From sequence record PQ356295.1: 64,000 bases of DNA; one strand, given 5' to 3'. Under the pieces are notes generated by a model, which searched no databases, had not been told where the DNA came from, and worked only from the letters and a program-made list of their open reading frames with translations. This stretch comes from Escherichia phage KKE7M. Shown one piece after another: positions 52,455 to 63,363 of this stretch. The position numbers and the translations under genes are program-made. Position 1 is the first letter of the stretch. Each line of letters opens with the position of its first letter.

Positions 52455-53615
52455 ATGTTTACAGTATTCGGCAATCAAATCTTCCTGCGTCAGAAATCTG
52501 GTACAGATATTGAAGAAATTCCAGCAGGAACTTTTGGTGTAGGTGTTACTCAAAGTGGTGAGTTCTTCTTGTATCCTAAAAACGATATGGAAGTCCCTTC
52601 AGTAACATACGGTGATACTGATGATAAATCAGAACGTATTATCAAAACGTTCCTTAGCCGCAAAGGTAAAAACACAGGTGTTCTCCTTGAAGGTACGAAA
52701 GGTAGCGGTAAAACTTTGCAAGCTAAAATGCTGTCTTCTGCTCTTCGTGAAATGGGTATTCCTACTATTTCTATCGGTAGTGCTTTTAATGGTGAAGGCT
52801 TTATCAATTTTATGTCTAAAACCACACAACCTGTGATGATTATGATCGATGAATTTGATAAACTGTATGCTGAAAAAGATGCACAAGATGGTTTGCTTAC
52901 CCTGCTGGATGGTGTTGGTGGCTACGACAAACTGTTTGTATTGACTAAAAATGATGGTTATGTATCAGAATTTTTGCGTAATCGTCCTAGCCGTATTTTC
53001 TACAGTTTTAGCTATAAGAAACTACCTAAAGCTACTATGGATGATTATCTGGCTAAAAATCTGGAGAACAAAGCCTTCTTACCAGATTTTGAAACGCTTT
53101 ATAATCTCTCCGTGGATTTGAACTTTGATATTGTTCAGTCATTAGTAGAAGAACTTAACCGTTACCCTAATGACAAATTCTCTGATGCACTTGCATTGAT
53201 GGGTATCAGTATTACTGAACACCGCTATGCTGCAAAAGAGGTTAAACTTCTGAAAGTTAACGGTGTAGATCGTACAGGAGATGTTTCGGCAGATACCGAT
53301 ATTGACGGTATGACAGCACAAGGTTTGTTTAGCGGTAATCGTTATGTTGTAGCTGTAGACCATAAACTAGGTGAAGAGCATCTTCCTGAAATGGAAGGGA
53401 TCGTTACCGTAGAAGATAAAGATGAAGAAGGTGACTACTACTGGGGTGTAGACCGTATCTTGCTGACGTATGATGAAAAACACATTCGTACAATGGGTGG
53501 TGACGGTTATCACTTTATGTTCACCGATGATAAAGGTAACAACATTGAAGTTGTTATTAAAAACAAAGAACGTAAAAATTACACAGAGTATGTGTTTGGT
53601 GGTCGTTCTTACTAA
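52455..53615 (+). CDS. AAA-family ATPase (paralog 2)
   Basis: Walker A GTKGSGKT, Walker B IMIDEFDK, LLTLLDG ... LFVLTKN; paralog of 37349..38476. Confidence 0.8.
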   Translation: MFTVFGNQIFLRQKSGTDIEEIPAGTFGVGVTQSGEFFLYPKNDMEVPSVTYGDTDDKSERIIKTFLSRKGKNTGVLLEGTKGSGKTLQAKMLSSALREMGIPTISIGSAFNGEGFINFMSKTTQPVMIMIDEFDKLYAEKDAQDGLLTLLDGVGGYDKLFVLTKNDGYVSEFLRNRPSRIFYSFSYKKLPKATMDDYLAKNLENKAFLPDFETLYNLSVDLNFDIVQSLVEELNRYPNDKFSDALALMGISITEHRYAAKEVKLLKVNGVDRTGDVSADTDIDGMTAQGLFSGNRYVVAVDHKLGEEHLPEMEGIVTVEDKDEEGDYYWGVDRILLTYDEKHIRTMGGDGYHFMFTDDKGNNIEVVIKNKERKNYTEYVFGGRSY

Positions 53616-53623
53616 GTGATAAA

Positions 53624-53650
53624 AGGAGGCGAAAGCCTCCTTTATTTATA
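53624..53650 (+). terminator. rho-independent terminator
   Basis: GGAGGC-GAAA-GCCTCC hairpin followed by TTTATTT. Confidence 0.65.
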
Positions 53651-53661
53651 TGGAGGGTATT

Positions 53662-53853
53662 ATGGATCATTATTTTGTTTTTAAAGATAAAGTTGATACC
53701 GCAGGTGGTCACGTTGCTAAAAATGATCGTGACATTAAAGAAGTATTAGGAGATCTGATTAACATTTTAGAACAAAAAGAGTTGCTTTTAGATAAGGATA
53801 TTGCTAGACTTCTTGGTGTGGGGATAAGTGACATACAAAGATTACCATTCTAA
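53662..53853 (+). CDS. hypothetical protein (63 aa)
   Basis: TGGAGGGTATT RBS before internal ATG. Confidence 0.5.
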   Translation: MDHYFVFKDKVDTAGGHVAKNDRDIKEVLGDLINILEQKELLLDKDIARLLGVGISDIQRLPF

Positions 53854-53864
53854 AGGGGAAGAAA

Positions 53865-54020
53865 ATGCTTACAGATGATGAATATAAAGCTATCCAAGAA
53901 AAACTGACGGAGCTTGAAATTCTTGCTGTCAATATTAAAGATCAATCACATGCTGGAAAGTTACTACGTCAAGAGATTAATAAAATTAAGCAGATGATAT
54001 TCTTTTGGACGGAGGATTAA
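53865..54020 (+). CDS. small protein, 51 aa
   Basis: AAAGGGGAAGAAA RBS; stop 1 nt before next ATG; not in ORF track. Confidence 0.45.
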   Translation: MLTDDEYKAIQEKLTELEILAVNIKDQSHAGKLLRQEINKIKQMIFFWTED

Positions 54021-54021
54021 A

Positions 54022-54678
54022 ATGACTGTTAAGCATATTTCTTTTGATGTATGGAATACTCTTATTACTGCTAACCCTTTGTATGCAGAAGAGCGCAACA
54101 AGGTTATTGCCGAGTATGCCTCTTGTTCTGAGGTAGAAGCAGCTACCGTATATAAAGAGGTAAAAACTCTCCTGGATTTAAAAGCAGAAAAAGGCATTTG
54201 TGGAACATCTAGAAATGCTTGGGAAACACTTTCTGCTCATTTGAACATTGAGCTTGATAAAGTAGATGGGTTAAAAAGAGACTGTTTAGCAATGTTTATA
54301 AAACATCCTCCAACATTAAACCCTGAACTTTGCAAGAAGTTGGAAGAGCTAAGTTCAACCTATTCTTTGAGTATTAAGAGCAATACTAATTTTGTACCAG
54401 GTAGCTTCTTAGCTGTCTATTCTGGCTTGACAAAATTACCATTTGACTTTATGCATTTTTCTGATGAGTTTTGCTTGTGTAAACCAGATCCTAGGTTTTT
54501 TAAACTCTCTTTTGATGAAATGGTAACGTTTGATCTCGCACCAGAGGAGATCTTACACGTTGGAGATAGTTTGATTTATGATGGAAAAGCTGTTGACATA
54601 GGAATGAAGTTCTGTCATATTATTAATCCAGAAGACTTGTTGGCTAAACTTAAAAAAGAGGAACTTATTAATGCGTAA
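54022..54678 (+). CDS. HAD-superfamily hydrolase
   Basis: N-terminal ISFDVWNTLI (motif I with nucleophile Asp) and C-terminal HVGDSLIYDGKAVD (motif IV); GGAGGATTAAA RBS. Confidence 0.7.
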   Translation: MTVKHISFDVWNTLITANPLYAEERNKVIAEYASCSEVEAATVYKEVKTLLDLKAEKGICGTSRNAWETLSAHLNIELDKVDGLKRDCLAMFIKHPPTLNPELCKKLEELSSTYSLSIKSNTNFVPGSFLAVYSGLTKLPFDFMHFSDEFCLCKPDPRFFKLSFDEMVTFDLAPEEILHVGDSLIYDGKAVDIGMKFCHIINPEDLLAKLKKEELINA

Positions 54679-55528
54679 TCAAATTCAACATTTTGCTAAT
54701 ACTTTTACTAACCTGAAGGAAGCAAAATTTAACATTGCAGATTATTCCAAGCTAAAGTTTGGTAGTAACCAGGCAGCAAAAAGAATGGGGCGCATTCTGG
54801 CTGAAAGTTTCTTTTCTAAGTATGAAGAACGACTGGTAAATGAAAGTTTTGTTGTTATTCCATCTCCATATAACTATGTGAAAAATGCAGCTACAGTGTT
54901 ATCTGAACATTTTGTAGATCACCTCAACTACCTAATCTCTATCAAAGGAGGTAAAGCAGTGGAGTGGGATATCGTTCATCGTAAAGTGAGCTACATTAAT
55001 GATTATGGATTTCTTAGCAAAGAAGATCGTAAGGCTTTGATCGATGGTGACACTTTCTCTATCAATCGTGATTTCTGGGGTAATAAAACTCTGATTTTCA
55101 TTGATGATGTTAATATTACAGGAACACACGAAGAAAAACTTATTGAAATTTTAGACAAAGAAGGTGTTGAAAACGATACGTTTTTCCTGTACTTTGCAAA
55201 GTATGAAGGTACAGAAGCCAATACCGAAGCTGCACTTAACTTCAACTATATCAACAATCTGGCAGCTTTTATTAAAATGATTAAGCAAGAAACTGATGCT
55301 AAATGTTTGGTTCGTCCTATTAAGTATCTAATGAGTCAAAGCGAAGTTGATTTTAAAATTGCACTTTCACAACTTCCTTTGTATTATGTAGAACAACTGT
55401 TCTTTGGTTGCCTTGCAGAAGGTTACAATAACGTTGAAAAATACAAAGAGAACTTTGATTTCCTACGTCAATTTTTTGAAAGCAACATTATCAACAAATC
55501 TAATGTTAAAGGGGATTATTATGTCTAA
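54671..55528 (+). CDS. phosphoribosyltransferase (type I PRT fold) domain protein
   Basis: PRPP-binding loop TLIFIDDVNITGTHEEK; overlaps both neighbours. Confidence 0.7.
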   Translation: MRNQIQHFANTFTNLKEAKFNIADYSKLKFGSNQAAKRMGRILAESFFSKYEERLVNESFVVIPSPYNYVKNAATVLSEHFVDHLNYLISIKGGKAVEWDIVHRKVSYINDYGFLSKEDRKALIDGDTFSINRDFWGNKTLIFIDDVNITGTHEEKLIEILDKEGVENDTFFLYFAKYEGTEANTEAALNFNYINNLAAFIKMIKQETDAKCLVRPIKYLMSQSEVDFKIALSQLPLYYVEQLFFGCLAEGYNNVEKYKENFDFLRQFFESNIINKSNVKGDYYV

Positions 55529-56237
55529 TAAAGTAATGACTTTCGGAGATCCTATCACCAATATTACAGAAAAAGATTTTGGGCGTGTAGCAACAGATAA
55601 AGATGGTGTCTTAAGAATTCGTGTGCAAGGTATTACAGCACAGGATGAATACGCTGTGTATGTTTCAGGTCTTAACTATATTGATGATCGCATTACACAA
55701 AACTTTGCACTGATCGGTGGTGTAGAGAAAATGTACTGGGAAGATGAAATTGTAATAAGTTATCCAGCAGGTATCGTTGAGGTATACGGTGATCTTTTAG
55801 CAGCAGCCGAGAGAGGCGATATAGACGCTATAGCACACTGCTGTAACTGTTTTTGCACTATGGGTAGTGGTATTGCACCAAAAATTAAAAGCAAGTGGCC
55901 TGGTGCGTTTAAAGCAGATTGTGCCACTAAACGTGGTGATTATAAAAAATTAGGTACGTTTACCAAATATACAGAAAACAATTTGACAATTTATAATTTA
56001 TATGGACAATATGGTTATAGTAGTCGTGAGGAAGGTAAGCGTGACCTGAATTATGAAGCTATCTACAATGCGCTAGATAGTATGGGAGACGATGTTGTAT
56101 CTTCAGGCGGTAAAATTGTAGGTTTACCAATGCTTGGTTGTGGTTTGGCTGGAGGTTCTTGGAATATTGTAAAACTTATGATCGAAGAAACTCTAGTAAA
56201 CAAAGGTTTAAATGTAATTGTTTACAAACTGAAATAA
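55521..56237 (+). CDS. macro-domain-like (ADP-ribose binding/processing) protein
   Basis: DAIAHCCNCFCTMGSGIAPKI and later GLPMLGCGLAGGSW resemble the two glycine-rich macro-domain loops; about 80-aa N-terminal extension. Confidence 0.55.
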   Translation: MSNKVMTFGDPITNITEKDFGRVATDKDGVLRIRVQGITAQDEYAVYVSGLNYIDDRITQNFALIGGVEKMYWEDEIVISYPAGIVEVYGDLLAAAERGDIDAIAHCCNCFCTMGSGIAPKIKSKWPGAFKADCATKRGDYKKLGTFTKYTENNLTIYNLYGQYGYSSREEGKRDLNYEAIYNALDSMGDDVVSSGGKIVGLPMLGCGLAGGSWNIVKLMIEETLVNKGLNVIVYKLK

Positions 56238-56246
56238 GGAGAAAGT

Positions 56247-56453
56247 ATGGCAGGTGTTTTAGCAGTATTAGGTTGTTTTATTGTTGTGTTCTTGATTGTG
56301 TTAATCCCTAGTTGGCTACTGCTTTTAGCATACAATTATATGATTGACATTATCGGCTTAGACTGGCATCATGTTCCTGTAACGTTTTGGAGTGTAGTCT
56401 GTGTGACGTTCATTCTTGCGGTACTCCGTGGTATCTTTCAATCTAACAAATAA
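56247..56453 (+). CDS. small membrane protein (68 aa)
   Basis: AAGGAGAAAGT RBS; two TM helices. Confidence 0.55.
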   Translation: MAGVLAVLGCFIVVFLIVLIPSWLLLLAYNYMIDIIGLDWHHVPVTFWSVVCVTFILAVLRGIFQSNK

Positions 56454-56467
56454 GAGAGGATCTTTAT

Positions 56468-56716
56468 ATGCGTAAAGTAAATGTTGAAGTGCTTGAAAAA
56501 TTTATAAACACTCGTGATTGTACTATCGGCAAGGTTTACGAGGCTATTCTCATTGAAGATGGAGATGAAGTTCCTGCTCCGTATCATGCCTTTAATGGTC
56601 AGGTTAGCAAAGTGGAAGGTGGTCTTGCTATTTGCTTTATTGATGATGTAGGTGATGCTGTAGCTTTCCCTATCATTAACAAAGAAGATAAACTTAAAAT
56701 TACAGAACTGAACTAG
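56468..56716 (+). CDS. hypothetical protein (82 aa)
   Basis: AGAGAGGATC RBS. Confidence 0.55.
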   Translation: MRKVNVEVLEKFINTRDCTIGKVYEAILIEDGDEVPAPYHAFNGQVSKVEGGLAICFIDDVGDAVAFPIINKEDKLKITELN

Positions 56717-56793
56717 TTGACTTTCTTTAAAAACAGTTTATAGTATAAGACATAGAGCGGAGGATTGTCCTCCGCATTAAAGAGGAGAAGAGA

Positions 56794-57771
56794 ATGCAAC
56801 TGGGTTTCCCAATTATTGATGTGGTTGTTTTAGTGGGTATTTTAGTGTTGTCGATTTGTATTGATTTCTTTGGACACAGAGAAAACAAAGAGATTTCATT
56901 TAAATCGGCAGTTGGTTGGTCAATTTTCTGGATTGGGGTATCATTAGCCTACTATGGTTTTGTATACTTCCAACACGGTGCTGATTTTGCGAGCTTGTTC
57001 TTGAGTGGATATGTGTTGGAGAAATCTCTTTCTGTAGATAACTTAGTAGTATTTGTGGCAGTATTCGCAAGTTTTGGTATTAAAAGCACACACTTGCAAC
57101 ACAAGATTCTACTTTGGGGTATTGCAGGTGCGATTGTCTTCCGAGGTGTGTTTGTAGCAGTAGGCACTTACTTGTTGAGTTTGGGCTGGTATGTTAATAT
57201 CTTCTTCGGTGCGGTCATCCTTTTCTGTGCAGCTAAAATGGTATTCGCGGGAGATAATGACGCAGAAGTTGATTACTCTAAACACTGGGCTACTCGCATT
57301 GTTCGTAAGCTGTTCCCTGTATCTGATCAGATGGATGGTGAGAAGTTCTTCACAATCAAAAATGGTGTTCGTGTACCAACTCCGGCTCTGGTTTGTGTGT
57401 TTGTAATGGAAATGGTTGACGTAATCTTTGCAGTAGACTCTGTTCCAGCAGTAATTGCAGTGACACAAGAACCTCTGCTTGTATTTTCTTCAATGCTGTG
57501 TGCAATTTTAGGTCTACGTGCTCTGTTCTTTGTCCTTAGTGTTGCACTGAAGTATTTGGTTCATCTGGAGAAAGCAGTTATCGTAGTCCTGGTGTTTGTG
57601 GGTGTAAAACTGATGTATCACCCGTTTGCAGAAACTCTGCACGCAAAAGTCAGTTTCCTGCCAGCACACATTGATCCGACGATCAGTATGTATATTGTGT
57701 TAGGTACTCTTGGGCTGGGTGTTATTGCAAGTTTAATCTTCCCTGAAAAAGAAGACCAGACTGTTGCTTAA
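56794..57771 (+). CDS. terC: TerC-family integral membrane protein
   Basis: Multi-pass membrane protein with EKSLSVDNLVVF and AVDSVPAVIAVTQEPLLVFSSMLCAILGLRALFF TerC signatures; AGAGGAGAAG RBS. Confidence 0.8.
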   Translation: MQLGFPIIDVVVLVGILVLSICIDFFGHRENKEISFKSAVGWSIFWIGVSLAYYGFVYFQHGADFASLFLSGYVLEKSLSVDNLVVFVAVFASFGIKSTHLQHKILLWGIAGAIVFRGVFVAVGTYLLSLGWYVNIFFGAVILFCAAKMVFAGDNDAEVDYSKHWATRIVRKLFPVSDQMDGEKFFTIKNGVRVPTPALVCVFVMEMVDVIFAVDSVPAVIAVTQEPLLVFSSMLCAILGLRALFFVLSVALKYLVHLEKAVIVVLVFVGVKLMYHPFAETLHAKVSFLPAHIDPTISMYIVLGTLGLGVIASLIFPEKEDQTVA

Positions 57772-57777
57772 TTCATT

Positions 57778-57800
57778 AAGCCCCTTCGGGGGCTTTGTTG
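57778..57800 (+). terminator. rho-independent terminator
   Basis: AGCCCC-TTCG-GGGGCT hairpin followed by TTGTTG. Confidence 0.6.
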
Positions 57801-57810
57801 AGGTGATCTG

Positions 57811-58017
57811 ATGGTGGTTTTACGTGTTCTTTGGATTCTGTTTGAAAATATTTGTTTTGCTTTAGGGTTATTTTGTTTGATTTTTATCTTGACAACATAT
57901 ATTGATAACCATACAATTACTATCAACAGGAACGGAGAACAGATGTATTGTTTCTCTAGGGATTTTAAAAATTGTGTTGAGACTTTAAATGAGAGGGTTA
58001 CAAATGAAAAACATTAA
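57811..58017 (+). CDS. small membrane protein (68 aa)
   Basis: GAGGTGATCTG then ATG; hydrophobic N-terminus. Confidence 0.45.
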   Translation: MVVLRVLWILFENICFALGLFCLIFILTTYIDNHTITINRNGEQMYCFSRDFKNCVETLNERVTNEKH

Positions 58018-58594
58018 ATCTTTTATTGTTGCAGTTGTATTAGGTAGTGCATTGCTGGTAGGTTGTGATGATTCTGAAAATGTACAAAATCAACGTTACC
58101 AACAAACACCAAATCAGATGGTAGATGAACAATATGTGAATCAGCCTGCACCTCAAGTTGTTCAAGCAGCACCTGCACAACCTTCAACAGTTGTTGTGCA
58201 AGGAGGCGGCAGTGGTTCTTCTGGTGTAGGTGACTTTGCTACAGGTATGCTTCTTGGTCATATGTTGAGTGGTAACAGTGGCGGTGGTGGTTATAGAGAT
58301 GGTGGTAGCAATACAACCATTATTAATAACAATGCTGCCCCTACAACTAACAGTAAATCATATACAACACAAAAGCGTAGTTTTTATGATAAACCTGTAA
58401 ATACATATACAACCACTAAACAAAACACAATTAAGCAGCAAAGTGTACAAACGTATTCACGCCCATCAACAACAAAAGTGAATAGTGATTACTCTGCTCG
58501 TAAGTCTTACTCAAGTCCTATTAGCTCTTATAGTAAGTCTTCGAAAAGTTATTCTTCGTCGAAACGTAGTTTTAGTAGCTCACGTCGTCGTTAA
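58004..58594 (+). CDS. lipoprotein with glycine-zipper and Ser/Tyr/Lys-rich tail
   Basis: Signal peptide ending in lipobox LLVGC; GGGSGSSGVGDFATGMLLGHMLSGNSGGGG glycine zipper; low-complexity C-terminus. Confidence 0.6.
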   Translation: MKNIKSFIVAVVLGSALLVGCDDSENVQNQRYQQTPNQMVDEQYVNQPAPQVVQAAPAQPSTVVVQGGGSGSSGVGDFATGMLLGHMLSGNSGGGGYRDGGSNTTIINNNAAPTTNSKSYTTQKRSFYDKPVNTYTTTKQNTIKQQSVQTYSRPSTTKVNSDYSARKSYSSPISSYSKSSKSYSSSKRSFSSSRRR

Positions 58595-58629
58595 TAATTT
58601 AATACAGATTAAATAAGAAGGAGAAACAG

Positions 58630-59481
58630 ATGAAACTAGAAGTTGGTAAAGTGTATCGCCTGGAAGGTTGGATCTTTAATCAAGAAATTCTTGAGAAGAA
58701 TAAAGATGGTTTTGAGTTTGTTGGTACTACCAAAGAAAGTATGCACGATGACGAATATTGTAAATTCGTTGGTAAAAATACAGGTCAAGAACAATTTTGC
58801 TTTAAAAGCGCAATCGGTGATTATGCTTCTGTAATGCCAACACCAGAAAAAACTTCGAAGCCATATACTGTCTTTGGTGTAAAACTTGAAGAACTGGTAG
58901 AACACCCACGTTTTGAAGAGTTTAAGGTTGCTGCAATGTGCAAGCATTCTGAAATTAAGATACATAATTTGTTTGATTTAGAAGATCGTTTTGATATCTT
59001 TATGTATGATCGCAGGGGAAAGCATTTTGATGCAACGACTTCAAAATTTGCTGCAACAGAGGATATTAAAATCCTTGATGTTGATACCTTTCTTGATAGT
59101 GTATCGTTTGTATTCATTCCTAAGTACAAAAAACGTAGTGATCATAAACGTGTGAAAGGAACTCCTCGTAAGAAACGTACTGTAAACAAAGCAACTTTGC
59201 ATTTCACTTCTGGTGATAAGTATACTCTCAAAGGGTTTGAAAGTGTTTTGTATGATGCTGGAACGGGTAATATCAAGTTTATTATTAAGGCAACCTACAA
59301 AGGTACGGTATTGCACGAAGAGGCTGTTACACTGCCTGTATTCGATATCTCTCGTGTTGAGGTACGGGGTGTTAAAGAGTCCTTCGATCTGGATTTCTTA
59401 ACCACTAATGCTACTGGTTATGTTAATCTGGAAGCAGATGGAGCATTTATTACTACAAATTATTTAGATATGTTTGTTTAA
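58630..59481 (+). CDS. hypothetical protein (283 aa)
   Basis: AAGAAGGAGAAACAG RBS. Confidence 0.6.
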   Translation: MKLEVGKVYRLEGWIFNQEILEKNKDGFEFVGTTKESMHDDEYCKFVGKNTGQEQFCFKSAIGDYASVMPTPEKTSKPYTVFGVKLEELVEHPRFEEFKVAAMCKHSEIKIHNLFDLEDRFDIFMYDRRGKHFDATTSKFAATEDIKILDVDTFLDSVSFVFIPKYKKRSDHKRVKGTPRKKRTVNKATLHFTSGDKYTLKGFESVLYDAGTGNIKFIIKATYKGTVLHEEAVTLPVFDISRVEVRGVKESFDLDFLTTNATGYVNLEADGAFITTNYLDMFV

Positions 59482-59549
59482 TACTTAATTTGTGTTATGA
59501 TGGTGGTACAGAGGTATCACCATCTACTAAAGAATATGGAGGAAATTGA

Positions 59550-60653
59550 ATGTCCAGTCCTTTTATCAGTGCCGTAAAAAGCAAACCGTCTGAAATGAGT
59601 GTATTCACGGCAACAACAGAAAAAAGTAAGTCTTTGTTTGCTCCAAGTGCTATGGATGCAAGTCCTGTATATGCCCCTGCTGTTGCACGACCTGTACAAA
59701 TGCTGCCTCCAATGTCTCGTGAAGAGATTGAACAGGTTGGTGCTGATGCAGGACTTACTCTTCGTAACCTTAATGCTGAAGTGCTTAAACACCAGCGTTC
59801 ATCTCAGGGAGATGAAATGAGTGAACGTTTAACTGCACTTATTAAGCAAGCAAAGCAACTTGATCCTAATTCTATTAAACAATCTAAAGGTTTAGGTAAG
59901 TTAGTTAAGAAAGTATTAGGTATGAAAGAAGATTTGTTTGGAGAATTTGACACCATCAATAATCGTATTGAAGGTTTGGTAAAGACACTACAAACAGACT
60001 TGAAAAAAGAAGAAGATTCTTTACGATATCTGCAACGTTTAGAAGAGGCTATTGCAAAATATGCTCTTAGCTTAAACAGGGATATAGAGCTTCTAACAGC
60101 TACTTATGAAAAAGAAGAAGTTCGCCTTAATACACTACCTGAAAATGAAGTAGAAGAGCGTCAACGTACTCGTGATACTATGGATCTGCTTGAAATTCGT
60201 ATTGCAGACCTGAAAGCCTTGCGTTTACTGTGTGTTCAGATGGGGCCACGTGTACAAAGTATGCAGAAAGTATCTGCAAGTTTGATGCGATCAGCACGTA
60301 ACATTGTGAATAATGTTATCCCTGCTTACTCTGCAAACTTTTCTATGTATATTGAAAGTCTACGCCAGAAGAAAGCAGCCGATACGCAGAACAATGTACT
60401 GAATGAGTTTAATGCTGCTATTGCAATGGGTAGTGATCTGGCTGCACAAAACCAAATTGAAGCTACGCAACTTGCTAATCGTCAAGTATTGGATATTGAA
60501 ACATTACGTCGCGATCAAGAAAACTTAGTTAAAATGTTGGAAGAAACTAACCGAATCAACACTGAAGCCCGTGCTGCTCGTATTGATTACATTCAAGAAG
60601 TGCAATCTCTTGAAGATGGTATGATTCAAACTGTTAAACGTGGTCTACTTTAA
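59550..60653 (+). CDS. telA: TelA-like (toxic anion resistance family) coiled-coil protein
   Basis: About 370 aa, largely alpha-helical/coiled-coil, length and pattern consistent with TelA/KlaA; sits between TerC and TerD. Confidence 0.55.
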   Translation: MSSPFISAVKSKPSEMSVFTATTEKSKSLFAPSAMDASPVYAPAVARPVQMLPPMSREEIEQVGADAGLTLRNLNAEVLKHQRSSQGDEMSERLTALIKQAKQLDPNSIKQSKGLGKLVKKVLGMKEDLFGEFDTINNRIEGLVKTLQTDLKKEEDSLRYLQRLEEAIAKYALSLNRDIELLTATYEKEEVRLNTLPENEVEERQRTRDTMDLLEIRIADLKALRLLCVQMGPRVQSMQKVSASLMRSARNIVNNVIPAYSANFSMYIESLRQKKAADTQNNVLNEFNAAIAMGSDLAAQNQIEATQLANRQVLDIETLRRDQENLVKMLEETNRINTEARAARIDYIQEVQSLEDGMIQTVKRGLL

Positions 60654-60666
60654 GGAGAAATATATT

Positions 60667-60873
60667 ATGAATATTAAAATTTACAAACTGTCTGGTTCTA
60701 TGATCGCTGTCCAGTACGACAATGAAGATCGTTATGTTCTCCTCCAGGATGCTTGGTTAGATGATCCTAATGTATTTACTGTCCTGCGAGAACTACGTTC
60801 TGTCTATACCTATTCTTCTAAAGATGGTTTTGATAGTTCAACGATGGAATTGGTAAAAGAGGAGAATGTGTAA
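60667..60873 (+). CDS. hypothetical protein (68 aa)
   Basis: TAAGGAGAAATATATT RBS. Confidence 0.5.
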   Translation: MNIKIYKLSGSMIAVQYDNEDRYVLLQDAWLDDPNVFTVLRELRSVYTYSSKDGFDSSTMELVKEENV

Positions 60874-61073
60874 TGAGTAAAGATATTCACTTAACTCGTG
60901 AAGAGTTACAAACCATTATGGAAGATGCTTTCATTGATGGTTGGAAACAAGGTCAAGAGTCAGATTGGTATGATGCCGAAGATTTTTTGTATTATCATAT
61001 GACTGCACCTGTAGATGAGCAAACACACTCTGAAACAACTTTGGCTATAATTGATCTTAAGGCTGGTGTATAA
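60873..61073 (+). CDS. hypothetical acidic protein (66 aa)
   Basis: ATG overlaps upstream stop; GGAGAATG upstream. Confidence 0.5.
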   Translation: MSKDIHLTREELQTIMEDAFIDGWKQGQESDWYDAEDFLYYHMTAPVDEQTHSETTLAIIDLKAGV

Positions 61074-61636
61074 TGGGATGTTTTAGTTTCTTGTGCAAAG
61101 AATCTGGTCATGCTGCTCTTTCTACCTCTTTCGATGGCTCTCCTTGCTACCTATTTCTTTTGAAAGGTGGTAAAGTTGTTGAAGAGATGTATGGCAATTA
61201 TGATAGCTATGGTAGTGTTTTCTCTAACGAAGAAGATAAACATGGCAATCGTAAAAGATTCAAGTGGTCTATGCCTTGGGAAGAAGTTTGTAATTTGATG
61301 TTCTCTTCCGATCTTGGGGATGGTATTGCTATGGTGTTAGAAGAGCACTTTACAGGTGAGATCCCAACAGAAAGATCTGAAGAAGACCCTAACCAGGGCT
61401 GGGGTGATGGAGAAGAAGATCCAGATTGCTTCTTCAGCACTGAAAATAATAAATTTAAACGTGTTGACAATCCTTACCACAAAGTGCATAATACTTGCAT
61501 TGAGACAGAAGAAGACTCAAAGCTAGAAATTGAAGATGATTTAGTTGTAACTATCTCTTTAAACGAGTTGCAAAAGATCACCAGAGAGGCTTTCTATTTA
61601 GGCTTGAGAGCAGGTAAAGGAGAAGACAGTGCTTAA
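61073..61636 (+). CDS. hypothetical acidic protein (187 aa)
   Basis: TAATGG overlap with upstream gene. Confidence 0.55.
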   Translation: MGCFSFLCKESGHAALSTSFDGSPCYLFLLKGGKVVEEMYGNYDSYGSVFSNEEDKHGNRKRFKWSMPWEEVCNLMFSSDLGDGIAMVLEEHFTGEIPTERSEEDPNQGWGDGEEDPDCFFSTENNKFKRVDNPYHKVHNTCIETEEDSKLEIEDDLVVTISLNELQKITREAFYLGLRAGKGEDSA

Positions 61637-61898
61637 ATTTAATATCAAAGACGACAAATCAGATGAACCTAAATGTTTTGGAGAACTTGACGCAGGTGAT
61701 ACATTCGTATATTATGTTGCCTATCAAGATGCTGGTTTAGATACGTTCAGAAACTTAGTGTTTATTAAGGTTAATACAAACCAAGCAATGTGTCTGAATG
61801 GTTCACAAAGAGGTCAACTTAACTGTATTTTATATGATACAGAAGTAGTAGAAGTGGATTTAGAAGTTACTAACATTACACTCAGAAAGGAGAAATAA
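61629..61898 (+). CDS. hypothetical protein (89 aa), GTG start
   Basis: AAAGGAGAAGACA then GTG. Confidence 0.5.
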   Translation: MLKFNIKDDKSDEPKCFGELDAGDTFVYYVAYQDAGLDTFRNLVFIKVNTNQAMCLNGSQRGQLNCILYDTEVVEVDLEVTNITLRKEK

Positions 61899-61899
61899 T

Positions 61900-62694
61900 A
61901 TGTCCAATAAAATCAGTCTTAAAAAACGTCAAGAAACTCTTACTGTATCTCTGCGTAAGAAAAAGATTAACGATGTTGTTCTTCGTGTCGGTAGCGCCTT
62001 AGATATTTCGGGCAGTATGTGTGAACTGTATCGTGATGGCACTGTTAGTGATTTTGTAGGTAAACTGCTGCCGTTTGGTATGAAGTTTGATGATAATGCA
62101 CAGATTGACATGTGGGCTTTCAATAGTTCTTCTTTTGAACTGCCTCCTGCAACGGCTGATGTGTATGATGATTATGTCGGCTCTTGCATGTCTAATGTTT
62201 GCATCAACGGTGGTACAGCTTATGCTCCAGTAATGCAAGAGATTTATGATACATACTTCGGCAGTGTACCTATGAAAAATATTACACGCGAAGTCGTTGA
62301 GTATGAAGAAGTCCCAGCTAAGGGTTTCCTTGCTAAACTAACTGGTAAAAAAGAACTTGTAGAAGTAACACGTACTGTTGTAGAACAGGTTGTAGATACT
62401 GATGCACAAGTTGATCGTACTCCTGCAATGATTTTCTTCCAAACTGACGGGGAAAACATGGATACTTCAGCAGTACGTAGCTTACTGAACAAACACCGCA
62501 ATACGCCTGTTTACTGGTTTATGGTTGGTGTAGGTAATGCAAACTTTAAATTCCTGAAAGACTTGGCAAAAGAATACGATAATGTTGATTTTATCGGTAT
62601 TGCAGATTTGTCCTTGTCTGATGAAGAACTTTACGATAAACTGTTATCCGAAGAGTTTGGCGAGTGGGTTAAAAAATTTGGAGCAAAAGCGTAA
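61900..62694 (+). CDS. von Willebrand factor A (vWA) domain protein, TerY-like
   Basis: MIDAS motif LDISGSM after a TerD-like ISLKK ... VSL N-terminal segment; AGAAAGGAGAAATAAT RBS. Confidence 0.65.
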   Translation: MSNKISLKKRQETLTVSLRKKKINDVVLRVGSALDISGSMCELYRDGTVSDFVGKLLPFGMKFDDNAQIDMWAFNSSSFELPPATADVYDDYVGSCMSNVCINGGTAYAPVMQEIYDTYFGSVPMKNITREVVEYEEVPAKGFLAKLTGKKELVEVTRTVVEQVVDTDAQVDRTPAMIFFQTDGENMDTSAVRSLLNKHRNTPVYWFMVGVGNANFKFLKDLAKEYDNVDFIGIADLSLSDEELYDKLLSEEFGEWVKKFGAKA

Positions 62695-62766
62695 AAAACG
62701 CTTGACTTTGTAGAAAAGATTAGTAAAATAGACAACGTAAATTAACAACAAAGGAGATAATAAATT

Positions 62767-63363
62767 ATGACTCAGAAAATTTCCCTGAAAAAAGGTTCTA
62801 GCGAAAAAGTTTCTCTGAAAAAGATTGCACCAGCACTGAAACGCATTCGTCTGGAATTCTCTTGGAAATCTAACGAAAAACTGGATCTGGATGTTAGTGC
62901 TCTGATTTGCCGACACAACGCATCTGGTCTGCCGGAACTGTTGTCTCCTCGCCACCTGGTGTGCTACGCACAGAAATTTGATCCTGAACGTTCTACTTTT
63001 GCAGGTGAAGATGTTCGTGACGGTGTAGGACAAATGGAGCAGATTGATGTTACACTGGATAATATCTCTGCTGAAGCACAGGAAATTGCATTCGTAATTA
63101 CTATTGATGACGAAACGGGTAAGAAACGCCTTGGTCACGCTACCGAAGGTTTCCTTAAAATCTTCGATGATGAACGTAATGTTGAACTGCTGGACTTTGA
63201 CTTCTTGGCTCCAGAACTTGCAGGTAACACCATTTGCCACGTTGCCTCCCTGGTACGGGAAGATAGTGAATGGAAACTGAAAGCATATGGTGTAGGTAAA
63301 GCTGGGCTTGACATTTACGATGTAGTTAAAGCGTTTGGCGCTGGCGACGATTGGTTCGAGTAA
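62767..63363 (+). CDS. terD: TerD-family stress protein
   Basis: ISLKKG ... VSLKK start, LDLDVSALI, GEDVRDGVGQMEQIDV, LLDFDFL and WKLKAYGVG match TerD domain blocks; AAAGGAGATAATAAATT RBS. Confidence 0.8.
   Translation: MTQKISLKKGSSEKVSLKKIAPALKRIRLEFSWKSNEKLDLDVSALICRHNASGLPELLSPRHLVCYAQKFDPERSTFAGEDVRDGVGQMEQIDVTLDNISAEAQEIAFVITIDDETGKKRLGHATEGFLKIFDDERNVELLDFDFLAPELAGNTICHVASLVREDSEWKLKAYGVGKAGLDIYDVVKAFGAGDDWFE

What the first reader, a model, noticed from the sequence alone, without database searches (positions are those of the whole stretch)
58004..58594. Lipoprotein with glycine zipper and Ser/Tyr/Lys-rich tail embedded in the Ter-like cluster
The protein has a signal peptide with lipobox LLVGC, a glycine-zipper segment (GDFATGMLLGHMLSGNSGGGG) and a low-complexity C-terminus (SYSKSSKSYSSSKRSFSSSRRR). 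Phage lipoproteins commonly mediate superinfection exclusion by blocking the receptor. Its position between TerC and TelA suggests it may be part of the membrane complex.
Basis: partly seen in the sequence, partly recalled or inferred. Interest (0 to 1): 0.4.

Follow-up and report, generated by a model that had tools for sequence, protein, structure and literature searches.

The report
Phage inner-membrane lipoprotein, unknown family
The gene is real and encodes a mostly disordered phage lipoprotein (phi92 gp180) probably held in the inner membrane; it belongs to a widespread, uncurated family of phage lipoproteins that usually has no tellurite-resistance (Ter) genes nearby, and its function is still untested.

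Summary
ORF 58004-58594 (+) encodes a 196-aa protein with a Shine-Dalgarno site, a signal peptide, lipobox LVGC (Cys21), an invariant G81xxxG85xxxS89 glycine-zipper helix and a basic Ser/Tyr/Lys/Arg tail ending in RRR. It is Phi92_gp180 and the window is a phi92-like coliphage. The gene is under purifying selection (dN/dS 0.16).

New points:
- Asp at +2 and +3 after the lipidated Cys predicts inner-membrane retention. This argues against masking of an outer-membrane receptor.
- AlphaFold2 finds only the signal helix and helix 74-89; the rest is disordered.
- The 70-residue core defines about 125 clusters of small lipoproteins with no Pfam or NCBIfam model. Every readable context is a phage or prophage early or replication block.
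- 22 of 23 family-bearing loci from the two collection scans have no Ter genes nearby.
- TerC…TelA synteny holds in four lineages of the phi92-like group and is broken in a fifth.
- A canonical spanin pair lies elsewhere in the genome.
- A small membrane-protein gene (gp181) overlaps the start of the lipoprotein gene and is conserved with it.

Function is unknown. My best guess, at low confidence, is an envelope-acting factor that blocks secondary infection at the inner membrane or periplasm. A role in the Ter complex is not supported beyond synteny.

The parts
58004..58594 (+). Gene for the 196-aa lipoprotein precursor (homolog of Phi92_gp180; phrog_21570), stop codon included
   Evidence: ORF list and sequence. 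phrog_21570 E=2e-120. 98% identical proteins on ~140-kb phage contigs. 54 Justusliebigvirus records. dN/dS 0.16.
57991..57997 (+). Shine-Dalgarno-like GAGAGGG, 6 nt before the ATG
   Evidence: Read directly from the sequence. The phi92 record annotates an RBS at the same place.
58004..58066 (+). Signal peptide with lipobox L18-V-G-C21. Cys21 is the predicted lipidated first residue of the mature protein
   Evidence: Pattern match and hydrophobicity. Cys is invariant in 26 homologs. SignalP annotation in phi92. AF2 helix 2-19.
58067..58072 (+). Asp22-Asp23 (+2/+3): predicted Lol-avoidance (inner-membrane retention) signal
   Evidence: D22 and D23 are nearly invariant in the phi92 clade. Family-wide, +2 is D in 47 members and DD in 35. 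The sorting rule itself is established knowledge and was not tested here.
58067..58213 (+). Acidic Gln/Pro/Val-rich linker (residues 22-70; pI 4.05)
   Evidence: Composition. Predicted disordered. dN/dS 0.06.
58118..58339 (+). Conserved core (residues 39-112): PxVVVQ, Gly/Ser loop, GVGDFATGMLLGHMLSG helix, Gly loop, TTIINNN
   Evidence: Alignments A1 and A2. A profile of this core recovers 130 cluster representatives at E<=1e-3, three of them false positives. dN/dS 0.08 for residues 71-112.
58223..58270 (+). Glycine-zipper helix, residues 74-89, with invariant G81-x3-G85-x3-S89
   Evidence: Invariant columns. AF2 helix 76-89 in the full-length model, and residues 74-89 at pLDDT about 83 in the core-only model. 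It is not hydrophobic enough for a classical TM segment: additive Hessa dG +9.4 kcal/mol.
58340..58591 (+). Basic, disordered Ser/Thr/Tyr/Lys/Arg tail (residues 113-196) ending in SSSRRR-COOH. Residues 97-196 have 18 K+R against 3 D+E and pI 10.4; the 85 residues after the core (112-196) carry net charge +15
   Evidence: Composition and tail-charge table. pLDDT <50. A terminal dibasic or tribasic end occurs in almost all family members. dN/dS 0.43. No DNA tandem repeat.
57811..58017 (+). Possible partner gene (Phi92_gp181 homolog): 68-aa protein with an N-terminal TM helix and two invariant C-terminal Cys. It overlaps the lipoprotein start by 14 nt
   Evidence: ORF. Annotated in phage records. 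Conserved at 37-44% identity and overlapping the lipoprotein start in L005 and L048; the homologous ORF sits directly upstream in L004. Absent upstream of the gene in L002.
57889..57917 (+). Sigma-70-like promoter match TTGACA-17-TACAAT (11/12), about 87 nt upstream of the lipoprotein ATG and inside the gp181 ORF. Status uncertain
   Evidence: Consensus scan; the total number of matches in the region is no higher than in shuffles. The exact pattern is present in alia and BME3. The -35 is conserved in L004, L005 and L048 but the -10 is weaker, and the -35 overlaps conserved Leu-Thr codons. L002 has an intergenic TTGACC-18-TAGTAT.

Best explanation
What it is (shown, or directly predicted from sequence):
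- A real, selected phage gene, the phi92 gp180 homolog.
- The product is exported and has a lipobox, so it is predicted to be lipidated at Cys21.
- Asp at +2/+3 predicts that it stays on the periplasmic face of the inner membrane.
- The mature protein is almost entirely disordered: an acidic Gln/Pro linker, one conserved amphipathic helix carrying a GxxxGxxxS stripe, and a strongly basic Ser/Tyr/Lys/Arg tail ending in RRR.
- It is a member of a large, uncurated family of phage-borne small lipoproteins. These sit among early and DNA-metabolism genes of many unrelated phages of Proteobacteria.

How it most likely works (inferred, not shown):
- It is made during lytic growth and changes the infected cell's envelope from the periplasmic side of the inner membrane.
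- The glycine-zipper helix packs against itself or against a membrane protein at the membrane surface. In the phi92 group that partner may be the co-transcribed small membrane protein gp181.
- The basic tail binds an anionic envelope component such as phospholipid head groups, peptidoglycan or LPS precursors, or incoming DNA.
- The most probable outcome is exclusion of, or protection against, secondary infection at the DNA-entry or periplasmic step. This would be functionally like T4 Imm/Sp or HK97 gp15, not like receptor-masking Llp/Cor.
- This action does not depend on the Ter proteins.
For: - Real gene: RBS, ORF and conservation; dN/dS 0.16.
- Lipoprotein: lipobox with invariant Cys; SignalP annotation in phi92.
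- Inner-membrane retention: conserved C-D-D.
- Disorder plus a single helix: AF2 runs.
- Glycine zipper: G81, G85 and S89 invariant.
- Family: 127 true hits in 1.84 billion representatives, with no Pfam, NCBIfam or PADLOC model.
- Phage-borne: 27 IMG/VR loci against 2 loci in 185,579 species genomes, both of them phage-like.
- Contexts: helicase-[gene]-ligase-PolA, nrdB-[gene]-thyX, near nrdD, and upstream of holin-lysozyme-Rz/Rz1.
- Ter-independent: 22 of 23 family-bearing loci lack Ter genes nearby, and the gene has moved away from TerC/TelA in L002.
- Possible own promoter.
- Literature: phage Ter systems and neighbouring genes have been proposed to act against superinfecting phages (PMC7824862). 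An early lipoprotein conferring lytic conversion has precedent in T5 Llp (reference cited in PMC11990801).
Against: - No experiment or homology links this family to any function.
- Lipidation and localisation are predictions. The +2 rule is established for Enterobacteriaceae only, and many family members from other hosts have G/S/N at +2.
- Expression timing is inferred from gene neighbourhood and a consensus promoter match that lies inside a coding region.
- A core conserved across phages of many hosts could equally serve a phage-beneficial housekeeping role in the envelope rather than exclusion.
- The Pantoea prophage copy next to a lysis cassette and the L002 copy about 2 kb from the endolysin hint at a lysis-related role.
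- The four-lineage synteny with TerC/TelA is not fully explained away.
Confidence: 0.3

Rival explanations
1. Accessory subunit of the phage Ter system. The lipoprotein, perhaps together with gp181, docks on the periplasmic face of TerC and/or links to TelA. The Met/His-containing helix might handle a metal or help assemble the membrane complex.
For: - The gene sits between TerC and TelA in four lineages of the phi92-like group whose proteins are about 40-55% identical, while the other genes in that interval vary (window, L004, L005, L048).
- The helix consensus TGMxLGHMMSGG is rich in Met and His.
- TerC is an integral membrane protein.
Against: - In L002 the gene lies about 7 kb from TelA and beyond the endolysin.
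- 22 of 23 other family-bearing loci have no TerC, TelA, TerD or vWA gene within 5-7 kb (contexts).
- The protein matches no Ter family in Pfam or NCBIfam.
- His86 and Met82 are replaced in many family members.
- Synteny within one group of collinear genomes is weak evidence for function.
Confidence: 0.15
2. One reading: an outer-membrane receptor-masking exclusion lipoprotein like T5 Llp or phi80/N15 Cor, which binds the phage's receptor from the periplasmic side.
For: - It is a phage lipoprotein in an early-type region.
- T5 Llp is a precedent (reference cited in PMC11990801).
Against: - Asp+2/Asp+3 predicts inner-membrane retention.
- The protein lacks a folded domain.
- The same core is conserved in phages of very different hosts (Escherichia, Yersinia, Pantoea, Burkholderia, Robbsia). 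A receptor-specific blocker would be expected to vary with the receptor.
- phi92-like phages use several glycan receptors through multiple tailspikes (PMC11990801). A single protein blocker fits that poorly.
- No similarity to any named exclusion protein in Pfam, PHROGs, NCBIfam or PADLOC.
Confidence: 0.08
3. Lysis-related protein: a non-canonical spanin-like pair (gp181 plus gp180), or a periplasmic regulator of lysis timing such as an antiholin or a lysis-inhibition sensor.
For: - A small membrane-protein gene overlapping a downstream lipoprotein gene resembles i-/o-spanin gene architecture.
- The Pantoea prophage copy lies immediately upstream of holin-like, GH24 lysozyme and Rz/Rz1 genes.
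- The L002 copy is about 2 kb downstream of the endolysin.
- Six clade members give weak hits to the Rz1-like LysC model (best E=0.021).
Against: - phi92-like phage BME3 has a canonical overlapped i-spanin (138 aa) and o-spanin (94 aa) next to the terminase (supplement of PMC12210895).
- The Pantoea prophage has its own Rz/Rz1.
- An o-spanin must reach the outer membrane, and Asp+2 argues against that.
- gp181 is too short (68 aa) for a coiled-coil i-spanin.
- The LysC hits are below threshold and cover the signal-peptide and Pro/Gln region.
- Most family members sit in replication modules, far from lysis genes.
Confidence: 0.12
4. Membrane-inserting glycine-zipper protein. The conserved helix oligomerises and enters or crosses the inner membrane, so that the basic tail ends up in the cytoplasm. 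This would form a leak or pore, or a trans-membrane signalling device.
For: - Tail charge tracks architecture. Members with an N-terminal signal peptide or lipobox almost all have basic tails; among full-length ones the net charge is +3 to +29. The five members in which the core follows a signal peptide, a TPR region and a TM helix with a basic cytoplasmic flank have acidic Ser/Asp/Trp tails of -6 to -22 (P0059, P0060, P0079, P0116, P0125). This is what the positive-inside rule predicts if the helix spans the membrane.
- The glycine-zipper pattern is invariant.
Against: - The helix is far too polar for autonomous insertion (+9.4 kcal/mol for the target, family median +6.7 for 17-mers).
- The basic residues begin about 30 residues after the helix.
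- P0067 and P0104 have the core followed by a genuine C-terminal TM with a basic end. That fits a periplasmic, non-spanning core.
- AF2 gives no oligomer information.
Confidence: 0.1

Closest known systems
Phi92_gp180 / PHROG phrog_21570 (hypothetical protein of Justusliebigvirus phages)
   Same: It is the same gene: full-length match at E=2e-120, 94-100% protein identity in 54 phage records, and the same neighbours gp181, gp179, TerC and TelA.
   Different: Nothing differs. The family carries no functional annotation beyond a SignalP signal-peptide note.
DUF1190 / YgiB (PF06693), a predicted lipoprotein encoded in the E. coli tolC-ygiBC operon, function unknown
   Same: - Both are lipoprotein-type precursors that are largely disordered.
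- They share a Gly/Met-rich helix: YgiB LMAGYMMGRLMGGGAG against the target FATGMLLGHMLSGNSG.
- One true DUF1190 protein (P0147, 78 bits) is also a significant hit of the core profile.
- A T4-like phage (Moon) is reported to carry a 'YgiB-like lipoprotein' of unknown role (PMC4319498).
   Different: - The target does not reach the Pfam threshold. Only 3 clade members hit, with best E=0.38.
- It lacks the Cys-rich N-terminal DUF1190 region.
- YgiB ends in ...SMGG rather than RRR, and it is chromosomal.
- A profile-profile match to YgiB orthologs alone gives 62% probability over only 16 columns. The 97.5% result used bridging sequences and is circular.
T5 Llp and Cor (phi80, N15): phage lipoproteins that mask FhuA
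   Same: They are phage-encoded lipoproteins. Llp is made early and causes lytic conversion (reference cited in PMC11990801; otherwise my own knowledge).
   Different: - They are outer-membrane lipoproteins; Llp is a small folded protein (my own knowledge).
- The target has an inner-membrane sorting signal, is disordered, and shows no detectable sequence similarity to them.
T4 Imm/Sp and HK97 gp15: inner-membrane or periplasmic superinfection-exclusion proteins
   Same: The proposed site (inner membrane or periplasm) and timing of action are the same.
   Different: - There is no sequence relationship.
- Those proteins are TM or secreted proteins, not lipoproteins (my own knowledge).
- The resemblance is a functional analogy only and is untested.
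Rz1 / LysC o-spanins
   Same: Both are small phage lipoproteins with a Pro/Gln-rich periplasmic part. The gene overlaps an upstream membrane-protein gene.
   Different: - The target is longer than is usual for an o-spanin (196 aa; the annotated o-spanin of BME3 is 94 aa).
- It has Asp+2 and a basic tail.
- The conserved periplasmic Cys typical of many o-spanins (my own knowledge) is absent.
- A canonical spanin pair exists elsewhere in the genome.
- The LysC hits are sub-threshold.
Glycine-zipper lipoprotein families (Pfam Gly-zipper_Omp, Gly-zipper_YMGG, Rick_17kDa_Anti/SlyB-Pcp type)
   Same: Both combine a lipoprotein signal with a (G/A/S)xxxGxxx(G/S/T) motif.
   Different: - No Pfam hit to any of these models, even at E<=10.
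- The target has a single short helix rather than a two-helix glycine-zipper hairpin.

Membership tests
Bacterial lipoprotein precursor (SPase II substrate) | Positively charged n-region, hydrophobic h-region and a lipobox [LVI][ASTVI][GAS]C within about the first 35 residues | tested here: met
   K2 and K5, h-region IVAVVLGSALL, LVGC with Cys21. Cys is invariant in 26 homologs. Most of about 125 family members have a lipobox.
Bacterial lipoprotein precursor (SPase II substrate) | Actual diacylglyceryl modification and globomycin-sensitive cleavage | not testable with these tools
   Needs labelling or mass spectrometry.
Inner-membrane-retained lipoprotein (Lol avoidance, Enterobacteriaceae) | Asp at +2, with a permissive +3 residue (Asp, Glu, Gln, Asn strongest) | tested here: met
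   C21-D22-D23 in the target. C-D-D is nearly invariant in the phi92 clade. The rule itself comes from established knowledge; localisation was not measured.
Glycine-zipper motif (Kim et al. 2005 pattern) | (G,A,S)xxxGxxxG or GxxxGxxx(G,S,T) on a helix | tested here: met
   G81xxxG85xxxS89, all three invariant in A1, on a predicted helix.
Glycine-zipper motif (Kim et al. 2005 pattern) | Motif located in a transmembrane helix | tested here: not met
   The best 19-mer in the mature protein has an additive Hessa dG of +9.4 kcal/mol. This is a crude scale, and no dedicated TM predictor was available.
Pfam glycine-zipper lipoprotein families (Gly-zipper_Omp, Gly-zipper_YMGG, Rick_17kDa_Anti) | Match to the family HMM at or near the gathering score | tested here: not met
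   No hit among 26 clade members at E<=10, or among 40 wider family members at E<=0.1.
DUF1190 / YgiB (PF06693) | Match to PF06693 at or above 22 bits, including the Cys-containing N-terminal region | tested here: not met
   The target gives no hit. Three clade members reach best E=0.38. E. coli YgiB scores 187 bits and P0147 scores 78 bits.
DUF1190 / YgiB (PF06693) | Remote homology of the Gly/Met helix region | tested here: inconclusive
   hhalign of A4 against YgiB orthologs gives 62% probability over 16 columns. A2 against single YgiB gives 7.8%. With bridging sequences the value is 97.5%, but that test is circular.
o-spanin (Rz1/LysC type) | Outer-membrane lipoprotein sorting (no Asp at +2) | tested here: not met
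   Asp at +2 and +3.
o-spanin (Rz1/LysC type) | Paired with an i-spanin (type II membrane protein with a long coiled-coil periplasmic domain) and serving as the phage's only such pair | tested here: not met
   The upstream gp181 is only 68 aa. BME3 has an annotated i-spanin (138 aa) and o-spanin (94 aa) elsewhere. LysC Pfam hits reach E=0.021 at best.
Ter (tellurite-resistance/stress) system component | Homology to a known Ter family (TerA-F/Z, TerY vWA, TelA, TerB, associated enzymes) | tested here: not met
   No Pfam or NCBIfam match, whereas the neighbours match TerC, TelA, vWA-TerF-like, TerD and PRTase_3 strongly.
Ter (tellurite-resistance/stress) system component | Consistent genomic co-occurrence with Ter genes across unrelated genomes | tested here: not met
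   Co-located in the window, L004, L005, L048 and L039, all from the phi92-like group. Relocated in L002. Ter genes are absent from 22 of 23 other family-bearing loci.
Known superinfection-exclusion / entry-exclusion lipoproteins (Llp, Cor, TrbK, TraT) | Sequence similarity to a characterised exclusion protein | tested here: not met
   No match for the target in Pfam, PHROGs (only families of unknown function), NCBIfam or PADLOC. Four wider family members give weak TrbK hits (best E=0.0063).
Known superinfection-exclusion / entry-exclusion lipoproteins (Llp, Cor, TrbK, TraT) | Exclusion phenotype on expression | not testable with these tools
   Needs plating and adsorption assays.

The most novel reading that the evidence does not exclude
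gp180 represents a large, unrecognised family of phage-encoded lipoproteins, about 125 clusters at 50% identity. Its single glycine-zipper helix would oligomerise in, or cross, the inner membrane. The sign of the tail's charge (basic in lipoprotein forms, acidic in forms that follow a TM helix) would then report which side of the membrane the tail is on. On this reading the family is a new class of small membrane-active phage effectors used by many unrelated phages of Proteobacteria during early or middle infection, for example to block DNA entry or to modulate proton-motive force. It would also be distantly related to the enigmatic host protein YgiB (DUF1190).
Probability: 0.12. Interest if true: 0.7.

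Novelty: new variant of a known kind. Interest (0 to 1): 0.35.

Why it matters
Phage lipoproteins that remodel the infected envelope affect phage-phage competition and the design of phage cocktails. phi92-like phages are broad-host-range therapy candidates.

This work turns an isolated hypothetical protein into a defined family with clear sequence hallmarks: a lipobox, a PxVVVQ strand, a GxxxGxxxS helix, a TTVVN strand and a basic tail ending in RRR. The family occurs across many phages and has no curated model, so one experiment on gp180 would annotate hundreds of genes.

It also warns against reading every gene inside a phage Ter-like cluster as a Ter component.

The possible link to YgiB/DUF1190, a long-standing unknown in the tolC operon, would add interest if confirmed.

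Tried and rejected
- Known-family assignment. Pfam, NCBIfam, PHROGs and PADLOC scans of the target and of 26 and 40 relatives gave only sub-threshold low-complexity or signal-peptide hits: DUF2076, LysC, YjbE, SARAF, LpoB, TrbK.
- Solved structures. A profile search of PDB sequences matched only the signal-peptide and linker region of a thioredoxin-family lipoprotein (E=0.0095). I rejected it.
- Structure. Two AlphaFold2 runs (full length with 52 sequences, core with 69 sequences) gave one helix and no fold, so I ran no fold search.
- Spanin. Rejected on the sorting signal, protein size, and the canonical pair elsewhere in the genome.
- Tail generated by DNA tandem repeats. TRF found none.
- Host copy. 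No E. coli chromosomal or prophage homolog at the DNA level.
- tblastn of two bacterial-type family members against cultured phages found nothing, probably because the query is short and the low-complexity filter is on. It was uninformative.
- The first genome-contig scan, with the diverse alignment A4, failed because no stretch was conserved enough. The narrower alignment A5 found only two loci.
- Three WD40-repeat proteins in the profile search were discarded as false positives.
- The hhalign result of 97.5% to DUF1190 was discounted because that alignment contained bridging family members.
Full report
**Where the window comes from.** The 4-kb stretch around the finding is 98-99% identical to phi92-like Escherichia myophages (Justusliebigvirus, Stephanstirmvirinae; best hit phage JohannJBalmer). 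In phage alia, BME3 and phi92 the corresponding gene is annotated only as 'hypothetical protein'. In phi92 it is Phi92_gp180, with a SignalP signal-peptide note.

**Observation.** The ORF 58004-58594 (+) is present and is preceded by GAGAGGG 6 nt upstream of the ATG.
- The N-terminus (MKNIKSFIVAVVLGSALLVGC) has a basic n-region, a hydrophobic core and a lipobox, LVGC. It is the only ORF in the whole 64-kb window that passes a strict lipobox pattern.
- The mature part divides into four segments: an acidic Gln/Pro/Val-rich linker (residues 22-70, pI 4.05); a Gly-rich segment with GVGDFATGMLLGHMLSG; a short TTIINNN stretch; and a basic tail. Residues 97-196 hold 18 K+R against 3 D+E (pI 10.4).
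- Pfam confirms the flanking TerC (56794-57771) and TelA (59550-60653). It also confirms vWA-TerF-like, TerD, PRTase_3, macro-domain and AAA ATPase genes nearby.
- Two further ORFs lie between TerC and TelA: 57811-58017 (gp181) and 58630-59481 (gp179).

**It is a real, constrained gene.**
- A search of 5.8 billion proteins found 29 homologs, all unnamed and all from phage-sized contigs or metagenomes.
- In their alignment Cys21, G74, G76, G81, G85 and S89 are invariant. D22, D23, the FAT-GM-L-H residues, TT-IN and the terminal RR are nearly invariant.
- Among seven phi92-like copies dN/dS is 0.16 overall: 0.06 in the linker, 0.08 in the core and 0.43 in the tail.
- The tail is not a DNA tandem repeat.

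**Sorting.** The mature N-terminus is Cys-Asp-Asp. In E. coli, Asp at +2 with Asp/Glu/Gln/Asn at +3 is the Lol-avoidance signal that keeps a lipoprotein in the inner membrane (established knowledge, not tested here). C-D-D is conserved in nearly every phi92-clade copy. Across the wider family, D is the commonest +2 residue (47 members, 35 of them DD), followed by G (29) and S (21).

**Structure.** AlphaFold2 with a 52-sequence alignment gave mean pLDDT 53.9 and only two helices, the signal peptide (2-19) and residues 76-89.
- A core-only run with 69 sequences gave the same single helix (residues 74-89, pLDDT about 83) and coil elsewhere.
- The helix carries G81-x3-G85-x3-S89. This fits the published glycine-zipper pattern GxxxGxxx(G,S,T), and those three positions are invariant, so the 'glycine zipper' is real as a motif.
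- The helix is too polar to be a classical transmembrane segment (additive Hessa scale +9.4 kcal/mol for the best 19-mer).
- No Pfam glycine-zipper family matches.

**A wider family.** A profile of the core (residues 39-112, alignment A2) was searched against 1.84 billion cluster representatives. It returned 130 proteins at E<=1e-3. Three are WD40 false positives. The rest are small proteins (95-270 aa, a few longer) with the same plan:
- a lipobox, in most members;
- a Gln/Pro linker;
- PxVVVQ;
- SGxGDxxTGMxLGHMMSGG;
- HTTVVNKT;
- a Ser/Arg/Tyr/Pro-rich basic tail (net +3 to +29) ending in RRR, GRR, FKR or KR.

No Pfam, NCBIfam, PHROG-with-function or PADLOC model covers the family.

The nearest curated family is DUF1190 (E. 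coli YgiB), which shares the Gly/Met helix.
- One true DUF1190 protein (P0147, 78 bits) is also a significant core hit.
- Against YgiB orthologs alone, the profile-profile match is 62% probability over 16 columns.
- The 97.5% value obtained with bridging sequences is circular.
- I therefore treat DUF1190 as a plausible distant relative, not as the family.
- YgiB itself has no known function (PMC11762307). A 'YgiB-like lipoprotein' of unknown role has been noted in a T4-like phage (PMC4319498).

**The family is phage-borne.** Every context I could read is a phage or a prophage:
- Robbsia andropogonis prophage, a Burkholderia cenocepacia contig and several ~47-kb viral contigs: primase, helicase, [gene], DNA ligase, PolA.
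- A 450-kb contig binned as Paraburkholderia: between nrdB and thyX.
- Yersinia phage vB_YenM_P778: near nrdD.
- A Pantoea prophage: immediately upstream of holin-like, GH24 lysozyme and Rz/Rz1 genes.
- Two other phage contigs: blocks of small early-type ORFs.

One narrow peptide pattern found 27 loci in IMG/VR but only two, both phage-like, in 185,579 species genomes. No copy exists in E. coli genomes at the DNA level.

**Relation to Ter.**
- Within the phi92-like group the gene lies between TerC and TelA in the window, L004, L005 and L048, whose proteins are about 40-55% identical. The other genes in the interval (HNH, SprT-like, unknowns) vary.
- In a more distant member of the group (L002) the gene has moved to about 2 kb beyond the endolysin.
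- phmmer with the window's TerC, TelA, TerD and vWA proteins against all ORFs of 23 further family-bearing loci hit only L039, which is itself a phi92-clade contig.
- The association is therefore synteny within one phage group and not a property of the family.
- Iyer et al. proposed that phage Ter systems serve competition with superinfecting phages (PMC7824862). That makes the neighbourhood compatible with an exclusion theme but does not make gp180 a Ter subunit.

**Not a spanin.**
- The ORFs after the SleB-type endolysin in phage alia have no TM or lipobox.
- BME3 has an annotated overlapped i-spanin (138 aa) and o-spanin (94 aa) next to the terminase (supplement of PMC12210895).
- The Pantoea prophage has its own Rz/Rz1.
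- Together with Asp+2 and the size, this rules out an o-spanin. A lysis-regulatory role is not excluded.

**A likely partner.** The 68-aa ORF 57811-58017 (gp181) overlaps the lipoprotein start by 14 nt.
- Homologs at 37-44% identity lie immediately upstream of the lipoprotein gene in L004, L005 and L048. The called homologs overlap its start by 14 nt in L005 and L048.
- They share an N-terminal TM helix and invariant C15, C47 and C55.
- L002 lacks this ORF upstream of the gene.
- The two C-terminal cysteines suggest a periplasmic domain (inference).

**Expression.** A near-consensus sigma-70 site, TTGACA-17-TACAAT, lies at 57889-57917, inside gp181 and about 87 nt before the lipoprotein ATG.
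- It is exact in alia and BME3.
- In L004, L005 and L048 the -35 is kept but the -10 is weaker, and the -35 coincides with conserved Leu-Thr codons.
- L002 has an intergenic TTGACC-18-TAGTAT.
- I regard an own promoter as possible, not shown.
- No transcriptome for phi92-like phages turned up in the literature search.

**An unexplained pattern.** In five members the core follows a signal peptide, a TPR region and a TM helix whose downstream flank is basic. These are P0059, P0060, P0125, the truncated P0116 and the related P0079. In these the tail is acidic Ser/Asp/Trp-rich (net -6 to -22) instead of basic.
- If the glycine-zipper helix crossed the membrane, both arrangements would obey the positive-inside rule.
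- The polarity of the helix argues against this. So do two members with a genuine C-terminal TM after the core (P0067, P0104).
- The question is open, and PhoA/GFP fusions would answer it.

**Verdict.**
- Confirmed: this is a real phage gene for a lipoprotein-type precursor with a glycine-zipper helix and a basic low-complexity tail.
- Corrected or added: predicted inner-membrane retention, intrinsic disorder, membership of a large uncurated phage lipoprotein family, a co-conserved small membrane partner, and independence from Ter genes at the family level.
- Function is unknown. I rank an envelope-acting exclusion or protection role at the inner membrane or periplasm first (about 0.3). The rivals are Ter accessory (0.15), lysis-related (0.12), membrane-inserting effector (0.1) and outer-membrane receptor mask (0.08).
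- The gene itself is already in databases as a hypothetical protein. What is new is the definition of the family. Interest is moderate to low (0.35) until a phenotype is found.

Noticed in passing
window 57811-58017 (+): A small ORF (68 aa, gp181 homolog) with an N-terminal TM helix and invariant Cys15, Cys47 and Cys55. It overlaps the lipoprotein start by 14 nt. It is conserved with the lipoprotein gene in four phi92-like lineages and missing in L002.
   Followed up: partly
window 57889-57917 (+): A near-consensus sigma-70 promoter match (TTGACA-17-TACAAT, 11/12) lies inside the gp181 coding sequence. A comparable intergenic TTGACC-18-TAGTAT precedes the relocated gene in L002 (7915-7950).
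   Followed up: partly
proteins P0059, P0060, P0079, P0116, P0125 (profile-search hits): These variants place the same glycine-zipper core after a signal peptide, a TPR region and a TM helix. Their tails are acidic Ser/Asp/Trp-rich instead of basic and RRR-terminated, so tail charge flips with architecture.
   Followed up: partly
family-wide; target residues 194-196 (window 58583-58591): Almost all lipoprotein-type members end in two to four basic residues (RRR, GRR, FKR, KR). I found no known sorting or attachment signal that matches. Lpp-type Lys cross-linking seems unlikely, since most members end in Arg.
   Followed up: no
window 52455-63363 (+): An extended Ter-like block on one strand contains an AAA ATPase, a HAD-type hydrolase (named in phage annotations), PRTase_3 (ComF-like), a macro-domain protein, TerC, TelA, vWA-TerF-like and TerD. 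It follows the anaerobic ribonucleotide reductase genes. The layout matches the 'nucleoside-like metabolite plus membrane' Ter architecture discussed in PMC7824862.
   Followed up: partly
window 58630-59481 (+): The gp179 homolog (283 aa) has no Pfam match and hits only PHROG families of unknown function. Weak Cas12g hits in PADLOC (E about 0.005) look spurious. A homolog is present in the phi92-clade locus L039 (phmmer E=2.9e-25).
   Followed up: no
window 56247-56453 (+): A 68-aa hydrophobic ORF is annotated as 'holin' in phage BME3. It sits far from the endolysin and just upstream of TerC.
   Followed up: no
L001 13413-13922 (phage alia; about 110 bases beyond the window's 3' end): The SleB-type endolysin has an N-terminal signal or SAR-like sequence (MSIKTFVAIALLSLTAFTFTPVVAQAEA). 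The three ORFs after it have no TM or lipobox, so the lysis genes of this phage group are scattered.
   Followed up: partly
phage records MG065639, MG065645, MG065656, MG065689: Four records labelled 'Campylobacter phage' (at least one marked UNVERIFIED) match in this region. The one listed in full, A150 (MG065639), is 98% identical in DNA to E. coli phi92-like phages. Mislabelling or contamination is likely.
   Followed up: no
L010 (NZ_JASGFN010000003.1, 450-kb contig binned as Paraburkholderia): A family member sits between nrdA/nrdB and thyX in a compact, same-strand arrangement that looks phage-like. The contig may be a very large phage or a prophage region inside a MAG.
   Followed up: no
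L009 1050-3095 (Pantoea scaffold; same protein in IMG/VR loci L024, L027, L028, L031, L032): A family member lies immediately upstream of a complete lysis cassette: holin-like 81 aa, GH24 lysozyme, and Rz with embedded Rz1. This is the only context that links the family to lysis genes.
   Followed up: partly
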